Part shown: positions 794-8,759 of the stretch, in pieces
Layout: each line of letters begins with the position of its first letter
Numbering within the stretch: the first letter of the stretch is position 1
Virus record (IMG/VR): IMGVR_UViG_3300010368_000009
Coordinates: 37,447-101,446 of that record
Length of the DNA: 64,000 bases
Origin: a virus
Strand: one strand, 5' to 3'
Notes under the pieces: generated by a model
The model's input: only the letters and a program-made list of their open reading frames with translations
Told to the model about the DNA's origin: nothing
The model's database searches: none
Made by a program: the position numbers and the translations under genes

Positions 794-1058
794 TAATAAG
801 GTAAAACACAGTCGTATATTTGATCGACCAATTCATCTTTATATTCATATTGATGTCCATGCTGGTATAAGTCAGAGTCGTATATTTGATATTATCCCTA
901 GTCGGTGTGGGTATACGTGTGACGTGATTTTAATATATCATGGTGGGTTCGACCTCGTATTAAAAAACCGCTATTCTCCCCCTGAAGGATTACAGATTTT
1001 CAAACGATCAATGGTTCGTGGTAATTTTATAAAGCTTCCTACCAGTTTCAAGATAAAA

Positions 1059-1089
1059 TAAAACCCGCTGGATTGCTCCAACGGGTTTT
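1059..1089. terminator. intrinsic terminator between convergent genes
   Basis: AAAACCCG..TGGA/TCCA..CGGGTTTT hairpin with A/T tracts on both sides. Confidence 0.6.
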
Positions 1090-1110
1090 ATCTTTGTGGT
1101 GGTTCAGTAG

Positions 1111-2742
1111 TTACCGAACGAATTCAGCCATTACCGATGGTGCGTTAGCATCAAATCCAACGATGTCGAGCATGCCCGGATCGTCTGGGTTAGCAATAGT
1201 GAACTCCGTTGCAGTCATACCAACAACAACCAGCTTTGCGTTGATGCCGGTCTTCTTGCGATAGTCACGAAGTGCTTCATGTGGATGAATGCCACCAGCC
1301 CATGTTTCATTATCCGTGTAGATAACAAAGACATCAACTTCAATACCATTATCCATTGCATAAAGCATTGGTGCTGCGCAATCGGTTCCACCGAATGGAA
1401 GACCACTGACCTTGCTAATCACGCCACTAAGCGTTGACGCCCGGCCAAAGTTTAGTGGCGTGACACCACGATCACCTACCGAAGACGATCCACGACCCCA
1501 ACCACCACGTGAAGGACTCGTGAAAGAAACAGTATGAGTAACCGGTTCTGTCTTCATTGTGATGAGAGCCATTGCAGCTGAAGCATCACGTGCAGTCAGA
1601 TTGGTATTCATAATGTTTTCCCAACCCATTGAGCCGGAAACATCAAGTGCAAGCAGATGACGCTTTCCAGTAGGAACAACATTCTTGAAGGCCAACATAA
1701 ATGCTTCTTCAAGAGCGGACGTAATGTTTCCATTAACATTCCATGTGTTATTACCACGGAAACCCTTACCACTTTCGTAAGTCTTCAGAGCAAGAAGCAC
1801 CGCCATTGGGTGGATACGTGACTTATGGATCAAATTTTGGTCCGTAAGACGACGCACTGCTTCTTGTTCAAACTCGGACATTGGCTTGAATAGATTGATC
1901 TTATCCGAAGACATATTTCCGAGATTACGGATCATAGCGGTCATTGGCATCTTATCAAAAAGAGCTTCCCAAACCTTTGGTTCGTTCAACATTTCCGTTG
2001 GAAGTGCTTCACGAGGCAGGTTAGCGTTCTTGATCAGATCAATCGTTTCCTTCACTGTTGCTGTCTTCACCATTTCGTATGCAGTGATGATAGCAGGCAG
2101 GTTAGCGGCATCTACTGGACGCCCGGACAGCCAACGGAAGAGCGAGTTACGCTCTGTGTCGTCTGTCTTAGGGTGTGCCAGACGAAGCAGGTCAAGGTGT
2201 GTCCAACCTTCGCGTTGACGATACTTCGTTGTCTGATAGGCAAGATCATCAACCGTTTGGTTGATATACCAATTACCGACAGCACGACGAAGCGCTGGAC
2301 CCCAACCACGGAACTGTTCTATGAATTCCGCGAACTGGAACAGGTGTGTACCGATACGAGCAACACGAGGCAGAGCCGCAAGAGCGTATGCAGCAACCTT
2401 TGGGTTAGCTGGATCACAAGCCATTGCGAGTGCAAACAGAGCTGCATCGTTACGATATGCACGACCGTTAACAGAAACGTCAACAATAAGATCGACTGCA
2501 CGGAAACCATTTTCAGCGATTGCCGTCTTCATGGAGTCTGCATTGCTAAGCGTGAGTTCACGAGCGGATGCATAATATGATGGTGCATCCGATCCAAGAA
2601 TCAGGAATCGTTCAAGACGACCGAAGCTATCCAGCGTGAACGAATATCCGCCCGCGTTGTTTTCCGCCTGCTTAGGGGAAGCTGCTTCTGTTTGTGGGGT
2701 TTGTCGGTTACGAGTTCCGACATTCTTATATGCAGTTGCCAT
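1111..2742 (-). CDS. rsr: Ro60/TROVE-domain RNA-binding protein (Rsr ortholog) with C-terminal vWA domain
   Basis: Motifs NNAGGYSF, RLERFLILGS, KYRQREGWTHLDLLRLAHPK, MPMTAMIRNLG, RIHP, vWA DVSGSM, GGTDC, YTDNETW. Start placed at MATAYK, which has an AGAAGG RBS; the longer TTG start runs into the RNA array. Confidence 0.97.
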   Translation of the reverse strand: MATAYKNVGTRNRQTPQTEAASPKQAENNAGGYSFTLDSFGRLERFLILGSDAPSYYASARELTLSNADSMKTAIAENGFRAVDLIVDVSVNGRAYRNDAALFALAMACDPANPKVAAYALAALPRVARIGTHLFQFAEFIEQFRGWGPALRRAVGNWYINQTVDDLAYQTTKYRQREGWTHLDLLRLAHPKTDDTERNSLFRWLSGRPVDAANLPAIITAYEMVKTATVKETIDLIKNANLPREALPTEMLNEPKVWEALFDKMPMTAMIRNLGNMSSDKINLFKPMSEFEQEAVRRLTDQNLIHKSRIHPMAVLLALKTYESGKGFRGNNTWNVNGNITSALEEAFMLAFKNVVPTGKRHLLALDVSGSMGWENIMNTNLTARDASAAMALITMKTEPVTHTVSFTSPSRGGWGRGSSSVGDRGVTPLNFGRASTLSGVISKVSGLPFGGTDCAAPMLYAMDNGIEVDVFVIYTDNETWAGGIHPHEALRDYRKKTGINAKLVVVGMTATEFTIANPDDPGMLDIVGFDANAPSVMAEFVR

Positions 2743-2806
2743 AATATTATTTCCTTCTCTCTTATACTTTCTCTTTAATAAGACAATATAAGACGAAGCG
2801 GATATC

Positions 2807-2889
2807 TTAACGAGCAAATGAGTTGCAGTGGATATGGTTTGTCAAAGTATGAGTCTGATTATGATAATCCATTACATCCGGCACGTTAA
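2807..2889 (-). ncRNA. Y RNA-like unit 1 (minimal, 83 nt)
   Basis: RNA 5'-UUAACGUGC[C]GGAUG...GGAUUAUC...CAUUUGCUCGUUAA; bulged-C helix; adjacent to Ro60. Confidence 0.8.
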
Positions 2890-2907
2890 TATTACTATAT
2901 TACTAAT

Positions 2908-3053
2908 ATGGCTTTGTGAGCAAATGTATAGAAAATAGGGTTTAAGCGCTCTACCGCTGAGCTACCAAGCCGCGAACGACCTGAGTTGGATTCGAACCAA
3001 CGACCTCTCCATTACAAGTGGATAACCTATTTTCATCCGGCTCACAAAGCCAT
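2908..3053 (-). ncRNA. Y RNA-like unit 2 (YrlA-type) with circularly permuted tRNA-Thr(UGU) domain
   Basis: Ro stem GAGC[C]GGAUG/CAUUUGCUC, then anticodon arm UCCA-CUUGUAA-UGGA, T-arm GUUGG-UUCGAAU-CCAAC, loop-closed acceptor stem and D-arm GCUC-AGCGGUA-GAGC. Confidence 0.88.
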
Positions 3054-3058
3054 TTTAG

Positions 3059-3205
3059 TAAGACGAGTAAATGAAATGACAAAGGGATAATATACAGTTG
3101 CGTCTACCAATTCCGCCACTCCCCGTTAGATTGGTCGGGGAGACAGGACTTGAACCTGTAATACTCACTGTTCCTTAGATAACCCTAAATCTCCGACACG
3201 TCTTA
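3059..3205 (-). ncRNA. Y RNA-like unit 3 (YrlA-type) with permuted Leu-like tRNA domain
   Basis: Ro stem GUGU[C]GGA/UUUACUC; T-arm ACAGG-UUCAAGU-CCUGU; acceptor CUCCCCG-ACCAAUCUAA-CGGGGAG; D-arm GCGGAAUUGGUAGACGC. Confidence 0.85.
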
Positions 3206-3236
3206 AATCATTTCCTTCTTTGTTCAGTCGTTAGTA

Positions 3237-3305
3237 GTTACGAGCAAATTGTTGAAAATGGGGGTTCATCAACAAAAGATAACCCACTCTCATCCGGCAC
3301 GTAAC
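3237..3305 (-). ncRNA. Y RNA-like unit 4 (minimal, 69 nt)
   Basis: GUUACGUGC[C]GGAUGAGAGUGGGUUAUC...CCCAUUUUCAACAAUUUGCUCGUAAC. Confidence 0.82.
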
Positions 3306-3314
3306 CGCTTTAGT

Positions 3315-3382
3315 ACTGCGAGCAAATTGTTTGAAATGGGGGTTCATCGTTGCAAGATAACCCACTTCATCCGGCCCGCAGT
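3315..3382 (-). ncRNA. Y RNA-like unit 5 (minimal, 68 nt)
   Basis: ACUGCGGGC[C]GGAUGAAGUGGGUUAUC...CCCAUUUCAAACAAUUUGCUCGCAGU; near-paralog of unit 4. Confidence 0.82.
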
Positions 3383-3400
3383 CTTATTGCGATGTGGATA

Positions 3401-3429
3401 TACTTAAGGGTAATAATTCGGGGTGTCAA
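3401..3429 (-). promoter_or_regulatory. putative sigma70 promoter of the Y RNA/Ro60 operon
   Basis: Minus strand TTGACA-N17-TAAGTA about 20 nt upstream of unit 5. Confidence 0.55.
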
Positions 3430-3502
3430 ACGGTTTTATGATTTTTCTGCATTTTTCTCTTTTTTGTTGCACATGGAGTGAAACGTGCTATAAGTATTAT
3501 CT

Positions 3503-3579
3503 TGCGGGTTAGAGAAGTTGGTCATCTCGTTAGACTCATAATCTGAAAACCGGTGGTTCGAGTCCACCACCCGCTCCCA
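3503..3579 (+). tRNA. tRNA-Met(CAT), initiator-like
   Basis: TTAGA-CT CAT AA-TCTGA anticodon arm, T-arm GGTGG-TTCGAGT-CCACC, CCA; U1:U72 mismatch and A11-U24 pair. Confidence 0.88.
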
Positions 3580-3598
3580 GTTTTACGTAGGAATAATT

Positions 3599-3763
3599 AT
3601 GAACAGAAAAGTAGAATTATTCCCAACGATTCATATCACCGAAGAAACTGTAGCTGACTTGAAAGAAATATATGATTTCGATGTCACGGCACCCATTGTT
3701 ATTCCATGGGGTGATGGAGACACGATTACTATAACACTGAAAGTTGTCACTGAGAATACTTGA
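3599..3763 (+). CDS. small hypothetical protein (54 aa, not in ORF track)
   Basis: AGGA RBS; MNRKVELFPTIHITEE...VVTENT*. Confidence 0.5.
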   Translation: MNRKVELFPTIHITEETVADLKEIYDFDVTAPIVIPWGDGDTITITLKVVTENT

Positions 3764-4951: not shown

Positions 4952-5162
4952 TATTGGCACAGCCACTGAAGAATTTCGATCTATGGTCGAAAAGTGGTAT
5001 CGAGATATTATCATTCCTGCTGTAGCAGCAGATCAACCGAGAAATAATTGTCGGATCGTGGTCATGTTGATTCGCGATGATGAGAAAGATGCCGAACGAG
5101 GCGTTATTATGGATCGTATTAAAATCATGGAAAATATGGAAATAGGAGCTGGACATGAATAA
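4830..5162 (+). CDS. hypothetical protein (start uncertain, probably downstream)
   Basis: Fills the gap between neighbours; its stop overlaps the next start. Confidence 0.45.
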   Translation: MVCCRTRKIKTWTRLQPMSKKSTNMEWTQFMASENHQFQNDIGTATEEFRSMVEKWYRDIIIPAVAADQPRNNCRIVVMLIRDDEKDAERGVIMDRIKIMENMEIGAGHE

Positions 5163-5355
5163 ATCGGATTATAATAAAACTGTCGTGTATAGTGTGGCGA
5201 TTATCGGTGTCATTATTGTTCTATCGGGTTTTACTGTGTCCGATATAATGCGAAATAAAGCTATGAGTGAAGTGGGAATTGCCGGTATGGAATTACAACA
5301 GGCGTGTGTGGAACATGATATTCCGCTGGCCGAATGTCGAGTGCGTATCAGATAA
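5155..5355 (+). CDS. small membrane protein
   Basis: AGGAG RBS; hydrophobic segment VVYSVAIIGVIIVLSGF. Confidence 0.6.
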   Translation: MNKSDYNKTVVYSVAIIGVIIVLSGFTVSDIMRNKAMSEVGIAGMELQQACVEHDIPLAECRVRIR

Positions 5356-5955: not shown

Positions 5956-7119
5956 ATGGAGTGTGTTATGTCCAAACTAACAGGGGTTGATCCCCGTGCC
6001 GTATATAATGACGGAAAAATCCTAACCGATTCTCTCGGGCCGGATCAAAAGCATGACCTGTTGGTATTCATTGGCCGTTTTCAGCCATTGCATTATGGAC
6101 ACATGCGAGTAATCGATATTGCTCTTACTCGCGCCAAGCAAACATTGATCTTGGTAGGTTCGGCAAATGTCGGACGAACTCTTTACAACACCTTTACATA
6201 TCAAGAACGCTACGCGATGATTGCTTCCCAATATCAGGAAGCGATTGATGATGGCCGTCTTGTGCTTCGTCCACTGGATGATCACACCTACGCTGATGCC
6301 GATTGGCTCGAACAGGTTCAAGATATCGTTGAACACGATGTTCTCAAGAATAAAACTGCAAAGACTATCAGTCTGATTGGTTGTGAGAAAGATCACACCA
6401 GTTATTACCTTGGTCTGTTTCCGCAGTGGGGCAACATTGGTGTTGAATTCAAGGTGCCGTTGAACAGTACTGATGTTCGCAAAGCTGTATTCCTTCAAAA
6501 GAATAGTTATAATCCCGGTCCCGGTTCTGGTCGCATCATTAATGAAGAATACGAGTTTATTCATAAAGCGTGTCCTCCTGAAATCGCACGGTTGCTGTAT
6601 GCCTTTACGATGCGATCTGAGTATGAAGACATCAAAGAAGAATGGGGTTTTATCAACACGTATCGTAACAACCGCCAAAAAGGTAATGAATATCCCGTCA
6701 TCGATCATACGGTTGATGCATGTGTTGTTCAGTCGGGTCACGTGTTGGTTGTTCAACGTCGCTGGCGTCCGGGTAAAGGACTGTTTGCTCTTCCGGGTGG
6801 CTTCCTTAATGAATTTGAACCGGTTGATCATGCCATCCTTCGGGAACTTCGTGAAGAAACTCAAATTGATGTGAGTGATACGGTTCTTCGTGCCGGTTTT
6901 GTGAAACGTGAACAGTTCAGTGATCCACGCCGGTCTGATCGTGGCCGCATCATTACTGAGTGTGGTTTGTTCAAACTTCAAGATCGCGCCAAGCTTCCAA
7001 CGGTTAAGGGTGCCGATGATGCCGCCTGTGCATTCTGGTTGCCATTGAATAAAGTTGATCCAAGTGCATTTTTTGAAGACCATGCATTCATCATTCGCAA
7101 ACTGACAAAAGATTTGTGA
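5956..7119 (+). CDS. nadM: bifunctional NMN adenylyltransferase / Nudix ADP-ribose pyrophosphatase (NadM-Nudix, NatV-like)
   Basis: FIGRFQPLHYGH (HxGH), NSTDVR, Nudix box GGFLNEFEPVDHAILRELREET, FEDH. Confidence 0.93.
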   Translation: MECVMSKLTGVDPRAVYNDGKILTDSLGPDQKHDLLVFIGRFQPLHYGHMRVIDIALTRAKQTLILVGSANVGRTLYNTFTYQERYAMIASQYQEAIDDGRLVLRPLDDHTYADADWLEQVQDIVEHDVLKNKTAKTISLIGCEKDHTSYYLGLFPQWGNIGVEFKVPLNSTDVRKAVFLQKNSYNPGPGSGRIINEEYEFIHKACPPEIARLLYAFTMRSEYEDIKEEWGFINTYRNNRQKGNEYPVIDHTVDACVVQSGHVLVVQRRWRPGKGLFALPGGFLNEFEPVDHAILRELREETQIDVSDTVLRAGFVKREQFSDPRRSDRGRIITECGLFKLQDRAKLPTVKGADDAACAFWLPLNKVDPSAFFEDHAFIIRKLTKDL

Positions 7120-7295: not shown

Positions 7296-8759
7296 ATGAC
7301 CATCATTGTAAACGTAAATGAAATCGAACGCATTCTTTCCAATCCGATTCTTATGTCAGATTCGTATAAGTTTTCACATTGGAAGCAATACCCACAAAAA
7401 TCTTTGTATGTGAATAGCTACATTGAATCTCGCGGCATGTGTACCGAATTGGTCAACAGTGGCCTCGACAACGAGTTGGTATTCTTTGGTATCCAAGGAT
7501 TTATCAAGCGTTACCTGTCTCGCCAAATCACACCCCAACATATTGATGAAGCTGAAAAATTCTGCAAGAATCATGGTGAACCATTCAATCGTCGTGGCTT
7601 TGAAATAATCGTGAATGATTACAACGGCTATTACCCTGTCAGTATTCAGGCTATTCCAGAAGGAACAGTCATCAGTGCACACAATGTTATGGTTCAAGTA
7701 ATCAATACTGACTCTCGGTTGTACTGGTTGACCTCGTTTCTGGAAACTGCATTGCTTCGCGCCGTGTGGTATCCAGTTTCCGTGGCTACCAAGAGCCGGG
7801 AAATCAAAAAGGTTATTGCCAAATATATGGATGATACGGTTGGCAATCGTGATGGTTTGGAATTCAAACTTCATGATTTCGGTGCCCGTGGTGTTTCTTC
7901 TCAAGAATCGGCCATGATTGGTGGCGCTGCCCATCTGGTGAACTTCATGGGAACTGATACCGTTGAAGCCGCTGTATGGCTCTCTGCACTGTATAGTGAG
8001 CCTATGGCCGGGTTCTCGGTGCCAGCCGCTGAGCATAGCACCACGACGACTTGGGGTGGACCGGAAGGCGAAGAAGCTAGTTTCTTGAATATGCTGGAAC
8101 AATTCCAAGGCAACTACCCGATTATCTCGGTGGTATCTGATAGCTATGACATTTACAATGCGATCACCAATCTTTGGGGTGGCACATTGAAGGAAGCTGT
8201 TATCGCTGCTTCAAAAATGGGTAGCAAGTTGGTCGTTCGTCCAGACAGTGGTGATCCAACAACGGTTCCTATCGATTGTGTTAAACTACTGATGGAAGTC
8301 TTTGGATACACGACTAATGATCTTGGGTATAAGGTATTGCCACCATATATCGGTGTGCTTCAGGGTGATGGTATCAACATCAATTCCATTCGTGCCATTC
8401 TTGAAAACATGAAGCGTGCTGGACTGTCGGTGGAAAACATTGTGTTCGGTATGGGCGGTGAGTTGCTTCAGGGTCATATGCGTGATGATCACAAATTCGC
8501 CATGAAGGCTTCTGAGATTCGGGTTGGTGATGAAGTTCGGGATGTGTTCAAGCAGCCGGTTACGGATGCTATGAAAATTTCAAAGAAGGGTCGATTGGCA
8601 CTTATTGAAACCAGCGGCGTTGGTTCTCGTGGCTACAACACATTGCGTGAATGTAATTTGGGCTACTTGGATAAAAACCTACTGCGGGAAATTTACCGTA
8701 ATGGTGAAATTTTAATCGATGACACCTTTACAACCATTCGGAAGCGTGCCAGTATCTGA
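7296..8759 (+). CDS. nadV: nicotinamide phosphoribosyltransferase (NAMPT/NadV)
   Basis: DSYKFSHWKQYP, LHDFGARG, AAEHS, SVVSDSYD, VRPDSGDP, QGDGI, FGMGG. Confidence 0.95.
   Translation: MTIIVNVNEIERILSNPILMSDSYKFSHWKQYPQKSLYVNSYIESRGMCTELVNSGLDNELVFFGIQGFIKRYLSRQITPQHIDEAEKFCKNHGEPFNRRGFEIIVNDYNGYYPVSIQAIPEGTVISAHNVMVQVINTDSRLYWLTSFLETALLRAVWYPVSVATKSREIKKVIAKYMDDTVGNRDGLEFKLHDFGARGVSSQESAMIGGAAHLVNFMGTDTVEAAVWLSALYSEPMAGFSVPAAEHSTTTTWGGPEGEEASFLNMLEQFQGNYPIISVVSDSYDIYNAITNLWGGTLKEAVIAASKMGSKLVVRPDSGDPTTVPIDCVKLLMEVFGYTTNDLGYKVLPPYIGVLQGDGININSIRAILENMKRAGLSVENIVFGMGGELLQGHMRDDHKFAMKASEIRVGDEVRDVFKQPVTDAMKISKKGRLALIETSGVGSRGYNTLRECNLGYLDKNLLREIYRNGEILIDDTFTTIRKRASI

What the first reader, a model, noticed from the sequence alone, without database searches (positions are those of the whole stretch)
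3237..3382. Minimal Y RNAs resembling animal Y RNA/sbRNA rather than bacterial YrlA
Seen: units 4 and 5 (69 and 68 nt), and unit 1, lack any tRNA domain. Units 4 and 5 consist of the Ro stem, an internal loop, an upper stem AGUGGG/CCCAUU and UUAUC at the start of the apical loop. From memory, human Y4 begins GGCUGGUCCGAUGGUAGUGGGUUAUC and nematode stem-bulge RNAs have a conserved UUAUC; AGUGGGUUAUC occurs verbatim here. Inference: UUAUC may be an ancestral Y RNA element, and these phage RNAs could link the bacterial and metazoan families.
Basis: partly seen in the sequence, partly recalled or inferred. Interest (0 to 1): 0.78.

Follow-up and report, generated by a model that had tools for sequence, protein, structure and literature searches.

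The report
Hairpin Y RNAs beside phage Ro60
Three short hairpin RNA genes next to a giant phage's Ro60 gene are ordinary members of a widespread, mostly unannotated class of bacterial and phage Y RNAs. That class shares with worm and human Y RNAs both the Ro60-binding helix and a UUAUC motif 13 bases further on, so the motif probably belongs to the Ro60 particle.

Summary
Units 5 (3316-3381), 4 (3238-3304) and 1 (2808-2888) lie on the minus strand upstream of a phage Ro60 gene (1111-2745). Each is a 66-81 nt hairpin with no tRNA-like domain. Each has a closing stem, a bulged-C Ro60 helix, a covarying upper stem and UUAUC.

The proposed refutation tests did not refute the idea. At 241 other Ro60 loci, units defined only by the Ro site plus a closing stem carry UUAYC in 166 of 209 cases, against 1 of 74 on the opposite strand. 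The motif lies 13 nt after the bulged C in 143 of those 166, the same spacing as in human Y4 and in the nematode sbRNA consensus. Rfam's sbRNA model scores the window units at 31-36 bits (threshold 38). It scores the equivalent hairpins at nine bacterial or metagenomic Ro60 loci at 38-43.5 bits.

"Rather than YrlA" is a false contrast. YrlA-type units carry the same module, published as "YUAY". Hairpin Y RNAs are already known (YrlB, Yrn2, and the phiLo phage Yrl1/2 that bind Ro60).

Verdict: new members of a known kind. The cross-kingdom motif and its spacing look real and, in the held literature, unreported. Common descent cannot be separated from convergence on homologous Ro60 proteins.

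The parts
3316..3381 (-). Unit 5: 66-nt hairpin-type Y RNA. It has a closing stem, a bulged-C Ro60 helix (GGGC[C]GGA pairing with UUUGCUC), an upper stem AGUGGG/CCCAUU, and UUAUC 13 nt after the bulged C.
   Evidence: Fold z -4.4. RF01656 35.6 bits, E 1.8e-5. Model R1 60.2 bits (this unit was in the training set).
3238..3304 (-). Unit 4: 67-nt hairpin-type Y RNA, a near-duplicate of unit 5. The closing stem differs by changes that keep most of its pairs, with one U.U mismatch. UUAUC lies 14 nt after the bulged C.
   Evidence: Fold z -3.8. RF01656 31.2 bits. R1 52.7 bits. Alignment A2.
2808..2888 (-). Unit 1: 81-nt hairpin-type Y RNA with a longer apical region. Its motif is GGAUUAUC, 13 nt after the bulged C.
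   Evidence: Fold z -2.2. RF01656 31.4 bits. R1 42.9 bits.
3070..3200 (-). Unit 3: YrlA-type Y RNA with a tRNA-like domain. It has the same Ro module (GUGU[C]GGA) and GGGUUAUC.
   Evidence: Sequence. Weak YrlA match, 15.1 bits. Homolog in L006 at about 2570. Treated by another agent (item 2).
2920..3062 (-). Unit 2: YrlA-type Y RNA with a tRNA-like domain. It has the same Ro module and AGGUUAUC.
   Evidence: YrlA 28.4 bits and tRNA 28.3 bits. Treated by another agent (item 3).
1111..2745 (-). Phage Ro60 ortholog (TROVE + vWA_Ro60), the presumed protein partner of all five RNAs.
   Evidence: Pfam. 7974 homologs at E<=1e-20. 'Ro-like RNA binding protein' in 363 phage records.
3424..3429 (-). TTGACA, a possible -35 box for a single transcript running through the array into Ro60. 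No convincing -10 box was found.
   Evidence: Read. The consensus scan did not list it, so this is weak.

Best explanation
Units 4, 5 and 1 are hairpin-type ('minimal') Y RNAs. They are small non-coding RNAs that bind the Ro60 protein encoded immediately downstream, and they sit in a five-gene Y RNA array (three hairpins and two tRNA-like YrlA-type RNAs). Each RNA presents the conserved bulged-C helix, with 5' strand G-N-G-C-[C]-G-G-A, to the outer surface of the Ro60 ring. Thirteen or fourteen nucleotides further on, directly after a covarying upper stem that ends in UGGG/CCCA, comes the invariant UUAUC. I infer that UUAUC is part of the Ro60 particle. It would act either as a hinge or kink that sets the angle of the apical (effector) module relative to the ring, or as a direct contact. 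The apical parts differ between the five RNAs, so they could couple the one Ro60 to different partners, most likely host PNPase as shown for Thermus phage phiLo, during infection. Shown here: the anatomy, the adjacency to Ro60, conservation of the motif and its spacing, covariation of the upper stem, and restriction to Ro60 loci in four of five whole genomes. Inferred: expression and processing, Ro60 binding, the hinge role and the partner. The units belong to a large class found beside Ro60 in many bacterial phyla and phages. The consensus of that class is close to the nematode sbRNA and vertebrate Y RNA core.
For: Ro60 gene next door on the same strand.

Anchor test that does not use UUAUC: at 241 Ro60 loci, 166 of 209 non-redundant Ro-strand units carry UUAYC (121 carry UUAUC). 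Only 1 of 74 opposite-strand controls does, Fisher p 9e-36. The spacing from the bulged C is 13 nt in 143 of the 166. The sub-sets agree.

Alignment A2 has 80 hairpin units. The upper stem was not used for selection. It is 80% paired, and 6 of its 7 pairs show compensatory changes. Over the whole structure the covariation score is 0.675 against 0.24 shuffled, with 0 of 500 shuffles reaching it, and pairing falls from 88% to 37-51% when partners are slid.

Model R1 gave 97 matches at 60 of 80 bacterial-genome Ro60 loci, all 97 on the Ro60 strand.

In five whole genomes (4.9-9.3 Mb), four gave matches, and every match at E<=0.01 lies at the Ro60 locus. The fifth gave none.

The closest relative, L006 (Ro60 75% identical), keeps the order hairpin, tRNA-like, tRNA-like, hairpin, Ro60. 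Its closing stems differ in sequence and GGGUUAUC is unchanged.

The RF01656 (sbRNA) model matches units 5, 1 and 4 at 35.6, 31.4 and 31.2 bits. It matches equivalent hairpins at nine other Ro60 loci at 38.3-43.5 bits, above the gathering score of 38.

Literature: phiLo Yrl1/Yrl2 hairpins upstream of a phage Ro60 bind it, and they form ternary complexes with host PNPase (PMC12135203). The conserved UA of YrlA makes a ~30 degree kink in the crystal structure (bioRxiv 312249).
Against: No binding data exist for these RNAs.

The window units fall just below the curated sbRNA threshold, and the vertebrate Y_RNA model does not match.

The window's Ro motif reads CGGA, not the published CGAA, although 52 of 97 bacterial matches also have G there.

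The closing-stem covariation in A2 is partly by construction, since a closing stem was a selection criterion. The motif tallies made on R1 matches are biased, because R1 was trained on motif-bearing units. Only the anchor test is unbiased.

The hinge or contact role of UUAUC has no direct support for hairpin-type RNAs. Most of the RNA was unresolved in the phiLo cryo-EM map.
Confidence: 0.85

Rival explanations
1. The resemblance to animal Y and sbRNAs is convergence, not common descent. Homologous Ro60 rings in bacteria, phages and animals would impose the same helix, the same spacing and the same UUAUC on unrelated RNAs. These phage RNAs would then 'link' nothing historically.
For: Ro60 is homologous across domains (PMC12135203). 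The shared blocks are exactly those at fixed geometry from the Ro site, while loops and outer stems share nothing. RF00019 does not match. Kowalski and Krude 2015 state that bacterial Y RNAs are not homologous to the vertebrate clades.
Against: Three separate sequence blocks match in the same order. They are the 5' Ro strand, UGGGUUAUC, and the 3' strand containing AACUUG. Together they pass a curated family threshold in bacterial relatives. Per the review read, nematode sbRNAs keep UUAUC although only CeY RNA was found in ROP-1 immunoprecipitates, so Ro60 constraint alone does not obviously explain their motif. Ro60 and Y RNA genes travel together on phages, so joint transfer is plausible.
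Confidence: 0.4
2. The hairpins are not free-standing RNAs. They would be cis-acting Ro60-binding sites in the long 5' leader of the Ro60 mRNA, giving autoregulation of Ro60 synthesis.
For: All five units lie between a possible promoter and the Ro60 start, on the same strand. No terminator-like site separates them from Ro60 on that strand. In M. smegmatis the Y RNAs are encoded upstream of Rsr and come from a single precursor.
Against: In every studied case (D. radiodurans, S. Typhimurium, M. smegmatis) such units accumulate as discrete Ro60-bound RNAs. At many loci the same hairpins lie downstream of Ro60 (for example L213:4675, L221:4646, L193:5200), where they cannot be a leader.
Confidence: 0.08
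3. The shared UUAUC is a chance pentamer, and the units are generic hairpins or repeats with no tie to Ro60.
For: None beyond the shortness of the motif.
Against: 0 of 74 (UUAUC) and 1 of 74 (UUAYC) in strand controls, against 121 and 166 of 209. All 97 model matches lie on the Ro60 strand. The only matches in four whole genomes lie at Ro60.
Confidence: 0.01

Closest known systems
Thermus phage phiLo Yrl1 / Yrl2 (Y RNA-like hairpins upstream of phage Ro60; NAR 2025, PMC12135203)
   Same: Phage-encoded. Located in the non-coding stretch upstream of the phage Ro60 gene. Yrl2 is a single hairpin, numbered to at least residue 59 in the paper, with a stem-bulge-stem layout around a CGAA-type motif and no tRNA-like domain. 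Shown to bind the phage Ro60 and to form ternary complexes with host PNPase.
   Different: The phiLo RNAs were found through CGAA alone, and the paper's text does not mention UUAUC. I could not retrieve their sequences, so I do not know whether they carry UUAYC at +13. The window has CGGA, five units instead of two, and a mix with tRNA-like units.
Bacterial hairpin Y RNAs: YrlB (S. Typhimurium, M. smegmatis) and Yrn2 (D. radiodurans) (Chen et al. 2014, PMC4201824)
   Same: A second, smaller Y RNA encoded beside Ro60 together with a tRNA-like Y RNA. Described as a long hairpin closed by the 5' and 3' ends. Bound by Rsr.
   Different: Described as having a small pyrimidine-rich loop. M. smegmatis YrlB has a possible T-arm. 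BLAST with YrlB found orthologs only in Salmonella, so no family was defined. No UUAUC or sbRNA likeness was reported in the texts I could read.
YrlA (Rfam RF02553)
   Same: Same Ro60-binding module, and the same conserved element after it (published as 'YUAY' at nt 22-25, with UA forming a kink in structure 6cu1). Units 2 and 3 of the same array are of this type.
   Different: YrlA is defined by a tRNA-like T/D/acceptor domain. Units 4, 5 and 1 have none and give no RF02553 match even at E<=10.
Nematode stem-bulge RNAs (Rfam RF01656 ceN72-3_ceN74-2) and vertebrate Y RNAs (hY4)
   Same: Bulged-C helix. An upper stem ending in UGGG/CCCA with the UG-CA (GUG-CAU) pair. UUAUC as the first loop residues, 13 nt after the bulged C. 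A 3' strand containing AACUUG. AGUGGGUUAUC is identical in units 4 and 5 and in hY4.
   Different: The animal RNAs are Pol III transcripts with a 3' U tail that binds La, and they have longer loops. UUAUC and the upper stem are tied there to initiation of chromosomal DNA replication. Per the review read, only CeY RNA among C. elegans RNAs was found in ROP-1 (Ro60) immunoprecipitates. The window units score below the RF01656 threshold and do not match RF00019.

Membership tests
Y RNA (Ro60-associated ncRNA, bacterial/phage sense) | Encoded within about 2 kb of a Ro60 ortholog | tested here: met
   Units lie 63-636 nt upstream of the Ro60 start codon, on the same strand.
Y RNA (Ro60-associated ncRNA, bacterial/phage sense) | Stem formed by the 5' and 3' ends, carrying the conserved 5'-strand motif (GNCGAA(N0-1)G in bacteria, GGUCCGA in animals) with a bulged C | tested here: met
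   The window has G(G/U)GC[C]GGAUG, with the bulged C predicted unpaired. It reads CGGA instead of CGAA, as do 52 of 97 bacterial matches. The pair next to the bulge covaries, C-G 65 to U-A 15.
Y RNA (Ro60-associated ncRNA, bacterial/phage sense) | Accumulates as a discrete small RNA that is bound and stabilised by Ro60 | not testable with these tools
   The phage is uncultured.
Hairpin-type Y RNA (YrlB / Yrn2 / phiLo Yrl2) | Single long hairpin with no tRNA-like domain, co-encoded with a tRNA-like Y RNA | tested here: met
   Folds. No tRNA or YrlA match. Units 2 and 3 in the same array are tRNA-like.
Hairpin-type Y RNA (YrlB / Yrn2 / phiLo Yrl2) | Small pyrimidine-rich apical loop (Chen 2014) | tested here: inconclusive
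   The predicted 7-nt loops are UUGCAAC in unit 5 and UUUUGUU in unit 4. Unit 4 fits; unit 5 fits only partly.
YrlA (RF02553) | tRNA-like T, D and acceptor arms | tested here: not met
   No RF02553 match at E<=10 for units 4, 5 and 1. No T-loop motif in their sequences.
Nematode sbRNA (RF01656) | Covariance-model score at or above the curated gathering score (38 bits) | tested here: not met
   35.6, 31.4 and 31.2 bits. Relatives at nine other Ro60 loci do reach 38.3-43.5 bits.
Nematode sbRNA (RF01656) | UUAUC at the 5' end of the loop, directly after an upper stem with UG-CA | tested here: met
   Alignment to the family consensus. Same 13-nt spacing from the bulged C.
Vertebrate Y RNA (RF00019) | Match to the family model | tested here: not met
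   No match at E<=10 in 2700-3500, and none at E<=1 in 21 other Ro60 loci.
Vertebrate Y RNA (RF00019) | Pol III transcript with a 3' oligo-U tail that binds La; supports DNA replication initiation | not testable with these tools
   Not expected in a phage. The replication assay is an experiment.

The most novel reading that the evidence does not exclude
Prokaryotic and phage hairpin Y RNAs, nematode sbRNAs and vertebrate Y RNAs are one homologous family. Its core would be the bulged-C helix, a 13-nt spacer with a UG/CA-containing upper stem, and UUAUC. That core has travelled with Ro60, with phages as carriers. Under this reading UUAUC and the upper stem are primarily Ro60-particle elements, and their role in animal DNA replication is secondary. 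Bacterial or phage hairpin Y RNAs might then substitute for hY RNAs in the cell-free replication assay.
Probability: 0.35. Interest if true: 0.75.

Novelty: new member of a known kind. Interest (0 to 1): 0.52.

Why it matters
The three RNAs themselves only add members to a known kind. The comparison they prompted matters more in three ways.

First, hairpin Y RNAs beside Ro60 are common across bacterial phyla and in cultured actinophages. None of the five phage records I opened annotates them. A simple model (R1) finds them, and in four whole genomes its only matches were at the Ro60 locus.

Second, the conserved 'YUAY' of bacterial YrlA and the 'UUAUC' of worm and vertebrate Y RNAs appear to be the same element at the same 13-nt distance from the bulged C. 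I did not find that connection in the papers I could read. Some of those papers state that bacterial and animal Y RNAs cannot be found with each other's sequences or are not homologous.

Third, this gives a direct question for experiment: is UUAUC read by Ro60, or does it shape the Ro60 particle? M. smegmatis and its phages, and the phiLo proteins, are available for testing it.

Tried and rejected
Near-identical DNA search of 1000-3600 against phage records: no match.

The search for related loci with the single Ro60 protein gave only two distant loci. An alignment of relatives (A1) was needed.

The contigs of the closest proteins (P0003-P0008, 59-74% identical) could therefore not be fetched. 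Only L006 (75%) was available for close comparison.

The vertebrate Y_RNA model gave no match in any E-value scan.

A looser anchor (G[AGT]G..., one stem mismatch allowed) pulled in many false candidates inside GC-rich coding sequence, including a conserved stretch of the Ro60 gene itself. I kept the strict anchor for all statistics and removed coding-region candidates from A2 by hand.

The consensus promoter scan did not support a -10 box for the TTGACA at 3429-3424.

The 2020 Annual Review on bacterial Ro60 (PMC10870794) is not held, so I cannot exclude that the motif link is mentioned there.

The phiLo paper's supplements are not held, and the phage did not appear among the listed database rows. 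Whether Yrl1/2 carry UUAYC was therefore not checked.

Sinorhizobium phage Phosso (L248) and Desulfonema magnum (L217, G005) have Ro60 but gave no R1 match.

Complex prediction and the structure tools were not used. They take proteins only, and the question concerns RNA.

Full report
WHAT IS THERE

The window is part of a 101-kb IMG/VR viral contig estimated to be about 30% complete, so it comes from a very large phage. On the minus strand, 1111-2745 encodes a 544-aa Ro60 ortholog with a TROVE domain (E 1.8e-41) and a Ro60-type vWA domain (E 2.8e-62). Upstream on the same strand lie five stem-closed units.

- Units 5 (3316-3381), 4 (3238-3304) and 1 (2808-2888) are simple hairpins of 66, 67 and 81 nt.
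- Units 3 (about 3070-3200) and 2 (about 2920-3062) contain tRNA-like domains and give weak YrlA or tRNA matches. Other agents have dealt with those two.

ARAGORN and Rfam at gathering thresholds call nothing in 2800-3400. The three hairpins fold better than shuffles, with z = -4.4, -3.8 and -2.2.

All five units share three features: a 5' strand G-N-G-(C/U)-[C]-G-G-A, a 3' strand UUU(G/A)CUC, and GG(G/A)UUAUC. The finding's description is therefore accurate. One nuance applies. In units 4 and 5 the lowest-energy fold pairs UUAUC with a downstream GAUGA.

PMC5763536 prints the 5' end of hY4, and it contains AGTGGGTTATC.

IS UUAUC CONSERVED AT OTHER RO60 LOCI?

I collected 241 Ro60 loci with 3-kb flanks.

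- 81 came from viral contigs.
- 80 came from metagenomes.
- 80 came from named bacterial genomes spanning Alphaproteobacteria, Verrucomicrobiota, Chloroflexota, Actinomycetota, Armatimonadota, Myxococcota and others.

To avoid circularity I defined candidate units only by the Ro site (G[AG]G[CT]CG[AG]A) plus a perfect 8-bp closing stem. I then asked what follows. On the Ro60 strand, 209 non-redundant units were found. Of these, 121 carry UUAUC and 166 (79%) carry UUAYC in the next 26 nt. On the opposite strand the same procedure gave 74 candidates, with 0 and 1 respectively (Fisher p 1e-22 and 9e-36).

GGUUA and UUAUC are the most enriched pentamers. The distance from the bulged C to the first U is 13 nt in 143 of 166 cases, 14 nt in 21 and 12 nt in 2. 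In the viral and metagenome sub-set, both hairpin units (33 of 51 with UUAUC) and T-arm units (31 of 46) carry it.

DOES THE MATCH TO ANIMAL Y RNAs SURVIVE A REAL ALIGNMENT?

An E-value scan of 2700-3500 against all 4227 Rfam families matched the nematode stem-bulge RNA family RF01656. Units 5, 1 and 4 scored 35.6, 31.4 and 31.2 bits (E 1.8e-5 to 2.6e-4; gathering score 38). The alignment covers three blocks:

- the bulged-C helix;
- UGGGUUAUC;
- the 3' strand CCCA...CAA.UUG.

The same scan on 21 other Ro60 loci found the equivalent hairpin above threshold at nine of them. The scores were L213 43.5, L244 42.4, L188 41.5, L206 40.8, L234 39.6, L207 39.4, L200 39.3, L102 38.5 and L210 38.3 bits. 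Several more fell just below. Every match was on the Ro60 strand next to the gene.

In the RF01656 consensus the bulged C is position 11 and UUAUC starts at position 24. In hY4 the positions are 9 and 22. Both give the 13-nt spacing seen in prokaryotes. The vertebrate model RF00019 gave no match anywhere.

THE CLASS

I aligned 80 hairpin units (A2). The consensus has GCGGGCCGAAG, four variable bases, UGGGUUAUC, a variable loop, CCC, then CA and ACUUGCCCG.

The upper stem was not used in selecting sequences. It is 80% paired, and 6 of its 7 pairs show compensatory changes. The pair next to the bulged C switches C-G to U-A in 15 of 80 sequences. Over the whole structure the covariation score is 0.675 against 0.24 for shuffles, with 0 of 500 shuffles reaching it. 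Pairing falls from 88% to 37-51% when partners are slid. The closing-stem covariation is partly by construction.

A covariance model built from A2 (R1) gave these results:

- 97 matches at 60 of the 80 bacterial-genome loci, all 97 on the Ro60 strand.
- Within those matches the U-U-A-Y-C columns are as invariant as the Ro site (97, 97, 93, 97 and 95 of 97). This tally is biased by the model's training set.
- In five whole genomes of 4.9-9.3 Mb, four gave matches at E<=0.01 and all of them lie at the Ro60 locus. The fifth gave none (only 150 first-look candidates per genome were scored).
- In the window's own contig only the three units match.
- In cultured phages (Mycobacterium phages Farewell and InterFolia, Microbacterium phage FuzzBuster, Gordonia phage Mareelih), R1 finds hairpins with CGGUUA(U/C)C on the Ro60 strand. 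Most lie in the unannotated gaps just upstream of Ro60. In Mareelih they lie between the tmRNA and tRNA genes downstream of it. None of these records annotates a Y RNA.

THE CLOSEST RELATIVE

L006 comes from a 335-kb viral contig whose Ro60 is 75% identical. It has four units in the order hairpin, tRNA-like, tRNA-like, hairpin, then Ro60. Its closing stems have a different sequence (GAAUGAGC with GUUCAUUC), and GGGUUAUC is unchanged. The window's units 4 and 5 are near-duplicates. Their closing stems differ by changes that keep most of the pairs (A2), which fits a recent tandem duplication.

WHAT IS ALREADY KNOWN

- Chen et al. 2014 (PMC4201824) found YrlA-type RNAs near Ro60 in 254 bacteria and 22 phages. 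They defined GNCGAA(N0-1)G as the likely Ro site. They noted a conserved 'YUAY' at nt 22-25. They also noted that each studied species has a second, hairpin-shaped Y RNA (YrlB, Yrn2).
- The YrlA crystal structure shows the conserved UA making a ~30 degree kink.
- A 2025 paper on Thermus phage phiLo found two hairpin 'Yrl' RNAs upstream of the phage Ro60 through the CGAA motif. It showed nanomolar binding and ternary complexes with host PNPase.
- On the animal side, Kowalski et al. 2015 and the accompanying review describe UUAUC at the 5' end of the loop, and an A/GUG-CAC/U upper-stem motif, as conserved in sbRNAs and vertebrate Y RNAs and needed for replication activity. They state that bacterial Y RNAs are not homologous to the vertebrate clades.
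- Full-text searches for UUAUC or YUAY together with Y RNA or Ro60 found no paper connecting the two motifs. The 2020 Annual Review was not available.

INTERPRETATION

The units are hairpin-type Y RNAs of a phage Ro60 particle. That makes them new members of a known kind, closest to phiLo Yrl2 and to YrlB/Yrn2.

Three results appear solid and, in the literature I could search, unreported:

- the bacterial 'YUAY' and the animal 'UUAUC' are the same element at the same spacing;
- the UG-CA pair and the AACUUG 3' strand are also shared;
- a curated nematode model recognises bacterial hairpins above its own threshold.

The motif tracks Ro60 genes across bacteria and phages and sits at a fixed distance from the Ro site. 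I therefore infer that it belongs to the Ro60 particle, as a hinge or a contact, rather than to a replication-specific function.

The data cannot tell whether the likeness reflects common descent (with phages as carriers of Ro60 plus Y RNA modules) or convergence on homologous Ro60 surfaces. I put common descent at roughly one in three to one in two.

LIMITS

- There is no expression or binding evidence for this phage.
- Only one close relative was available.
- The motif tallies from R1 matches are biased.
- Animal sequences could be compared only through the Rfam consensus printed by cmscan and through the hY4 5' end quoted in a paper.

Noticed in passing
L009:1322-1437 (+), IMG/VR contig of 296 kb: A wcaG RNA motif (RF01761, 56.2 bits, above its threshold of 42) sits among Y RNA units about 1.6 kb upstream of a phage Ro60 gene. 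The function of wcaG RNA is unknown, so its placement in a Ro60/Y RNA array may be a lead.
   Followed up: no
L207, L234, L208, L188, L190, L244 (Verrucomicrobiota Ro60 loci): The Ro60 gene and its Y RNAs are flanked on both sides by large same-strand tRNA gene arrays (more than 20 tRNA calls in the 7.7 kb of L207). Several YrlA-like and Deinococcus_Y_RNA-like partial matches (about 48 bits, threshold 80) are interspersed.
   Followed up: no
L220:925-984, 991-1073, 1233-1293 (+): A contig binned as a Candidatus Bathyarchaeota archaeon MAG carries a Ro60 gene with three hairpin Y RNA matches (31-36 bits) just upstream. This is either an archaeal Ro60/Y RNA module or a binning error.
   Followed up: no
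L250:2239-2307; L252:2345-2414 and 2069-2141; L251:2433-2494, 2354-2419, 2206-2335; L249:4896-4961, 5042-5168: Cultured phages (Mycobacterium phages Farewell and InterFolia, Microbacterium phage FuzzBuster, Gordonia phage Mareelih) have hairpin or longer Y RNA candidates with GGUUA(U/C)C on the Ro60 strand. None of the GenBank records annotates them. In Mareelih they lie between tmRNA and tRNA genes downstream of Ro60.
   Followed up: partly
L248 (Sinorhizobium phage Phosso) and L217 / G005 (Desulfonema magnum): These have Ro60 genes but no match to the hairpin model in the flanks. For D. magnum there is none in the whole 8-Mb genome. Their Y RNAs, if any, are of another type or lie elsewhere.
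   Followed up: no
window 5956-7119 (+) and 7296-8759 (+): A cytidylyltransferase-like + NUDIX protein and a nicotinamide/nicotinate phosphoribosyltransferase lie side by side. This looks like a phage NAD-salvage pair, about 3 kb from the Ro60 array.
   Followed up: no
window 3503-3579 (+): A tRNA-Met(CAT) gene lies on the opposite strand just beyond the possible promoter of the Y RNA array, so the two RNA loci may be divergently transcribed.
   Followed up: no
A2 rows window units 4/5, L006, L009:2002, L062, L164, L088, L037: In a subset of hairpin Y RNAs, UUAUC is followed after 6-8 nt by GAUGA, GAUAA or GAUAG. That lets the motif pair and extend the upper stem past a 3-nt bulge. Most other members lack this complement. 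The motif may switch between paired and open states in this subgroup.
   Followed up: partly
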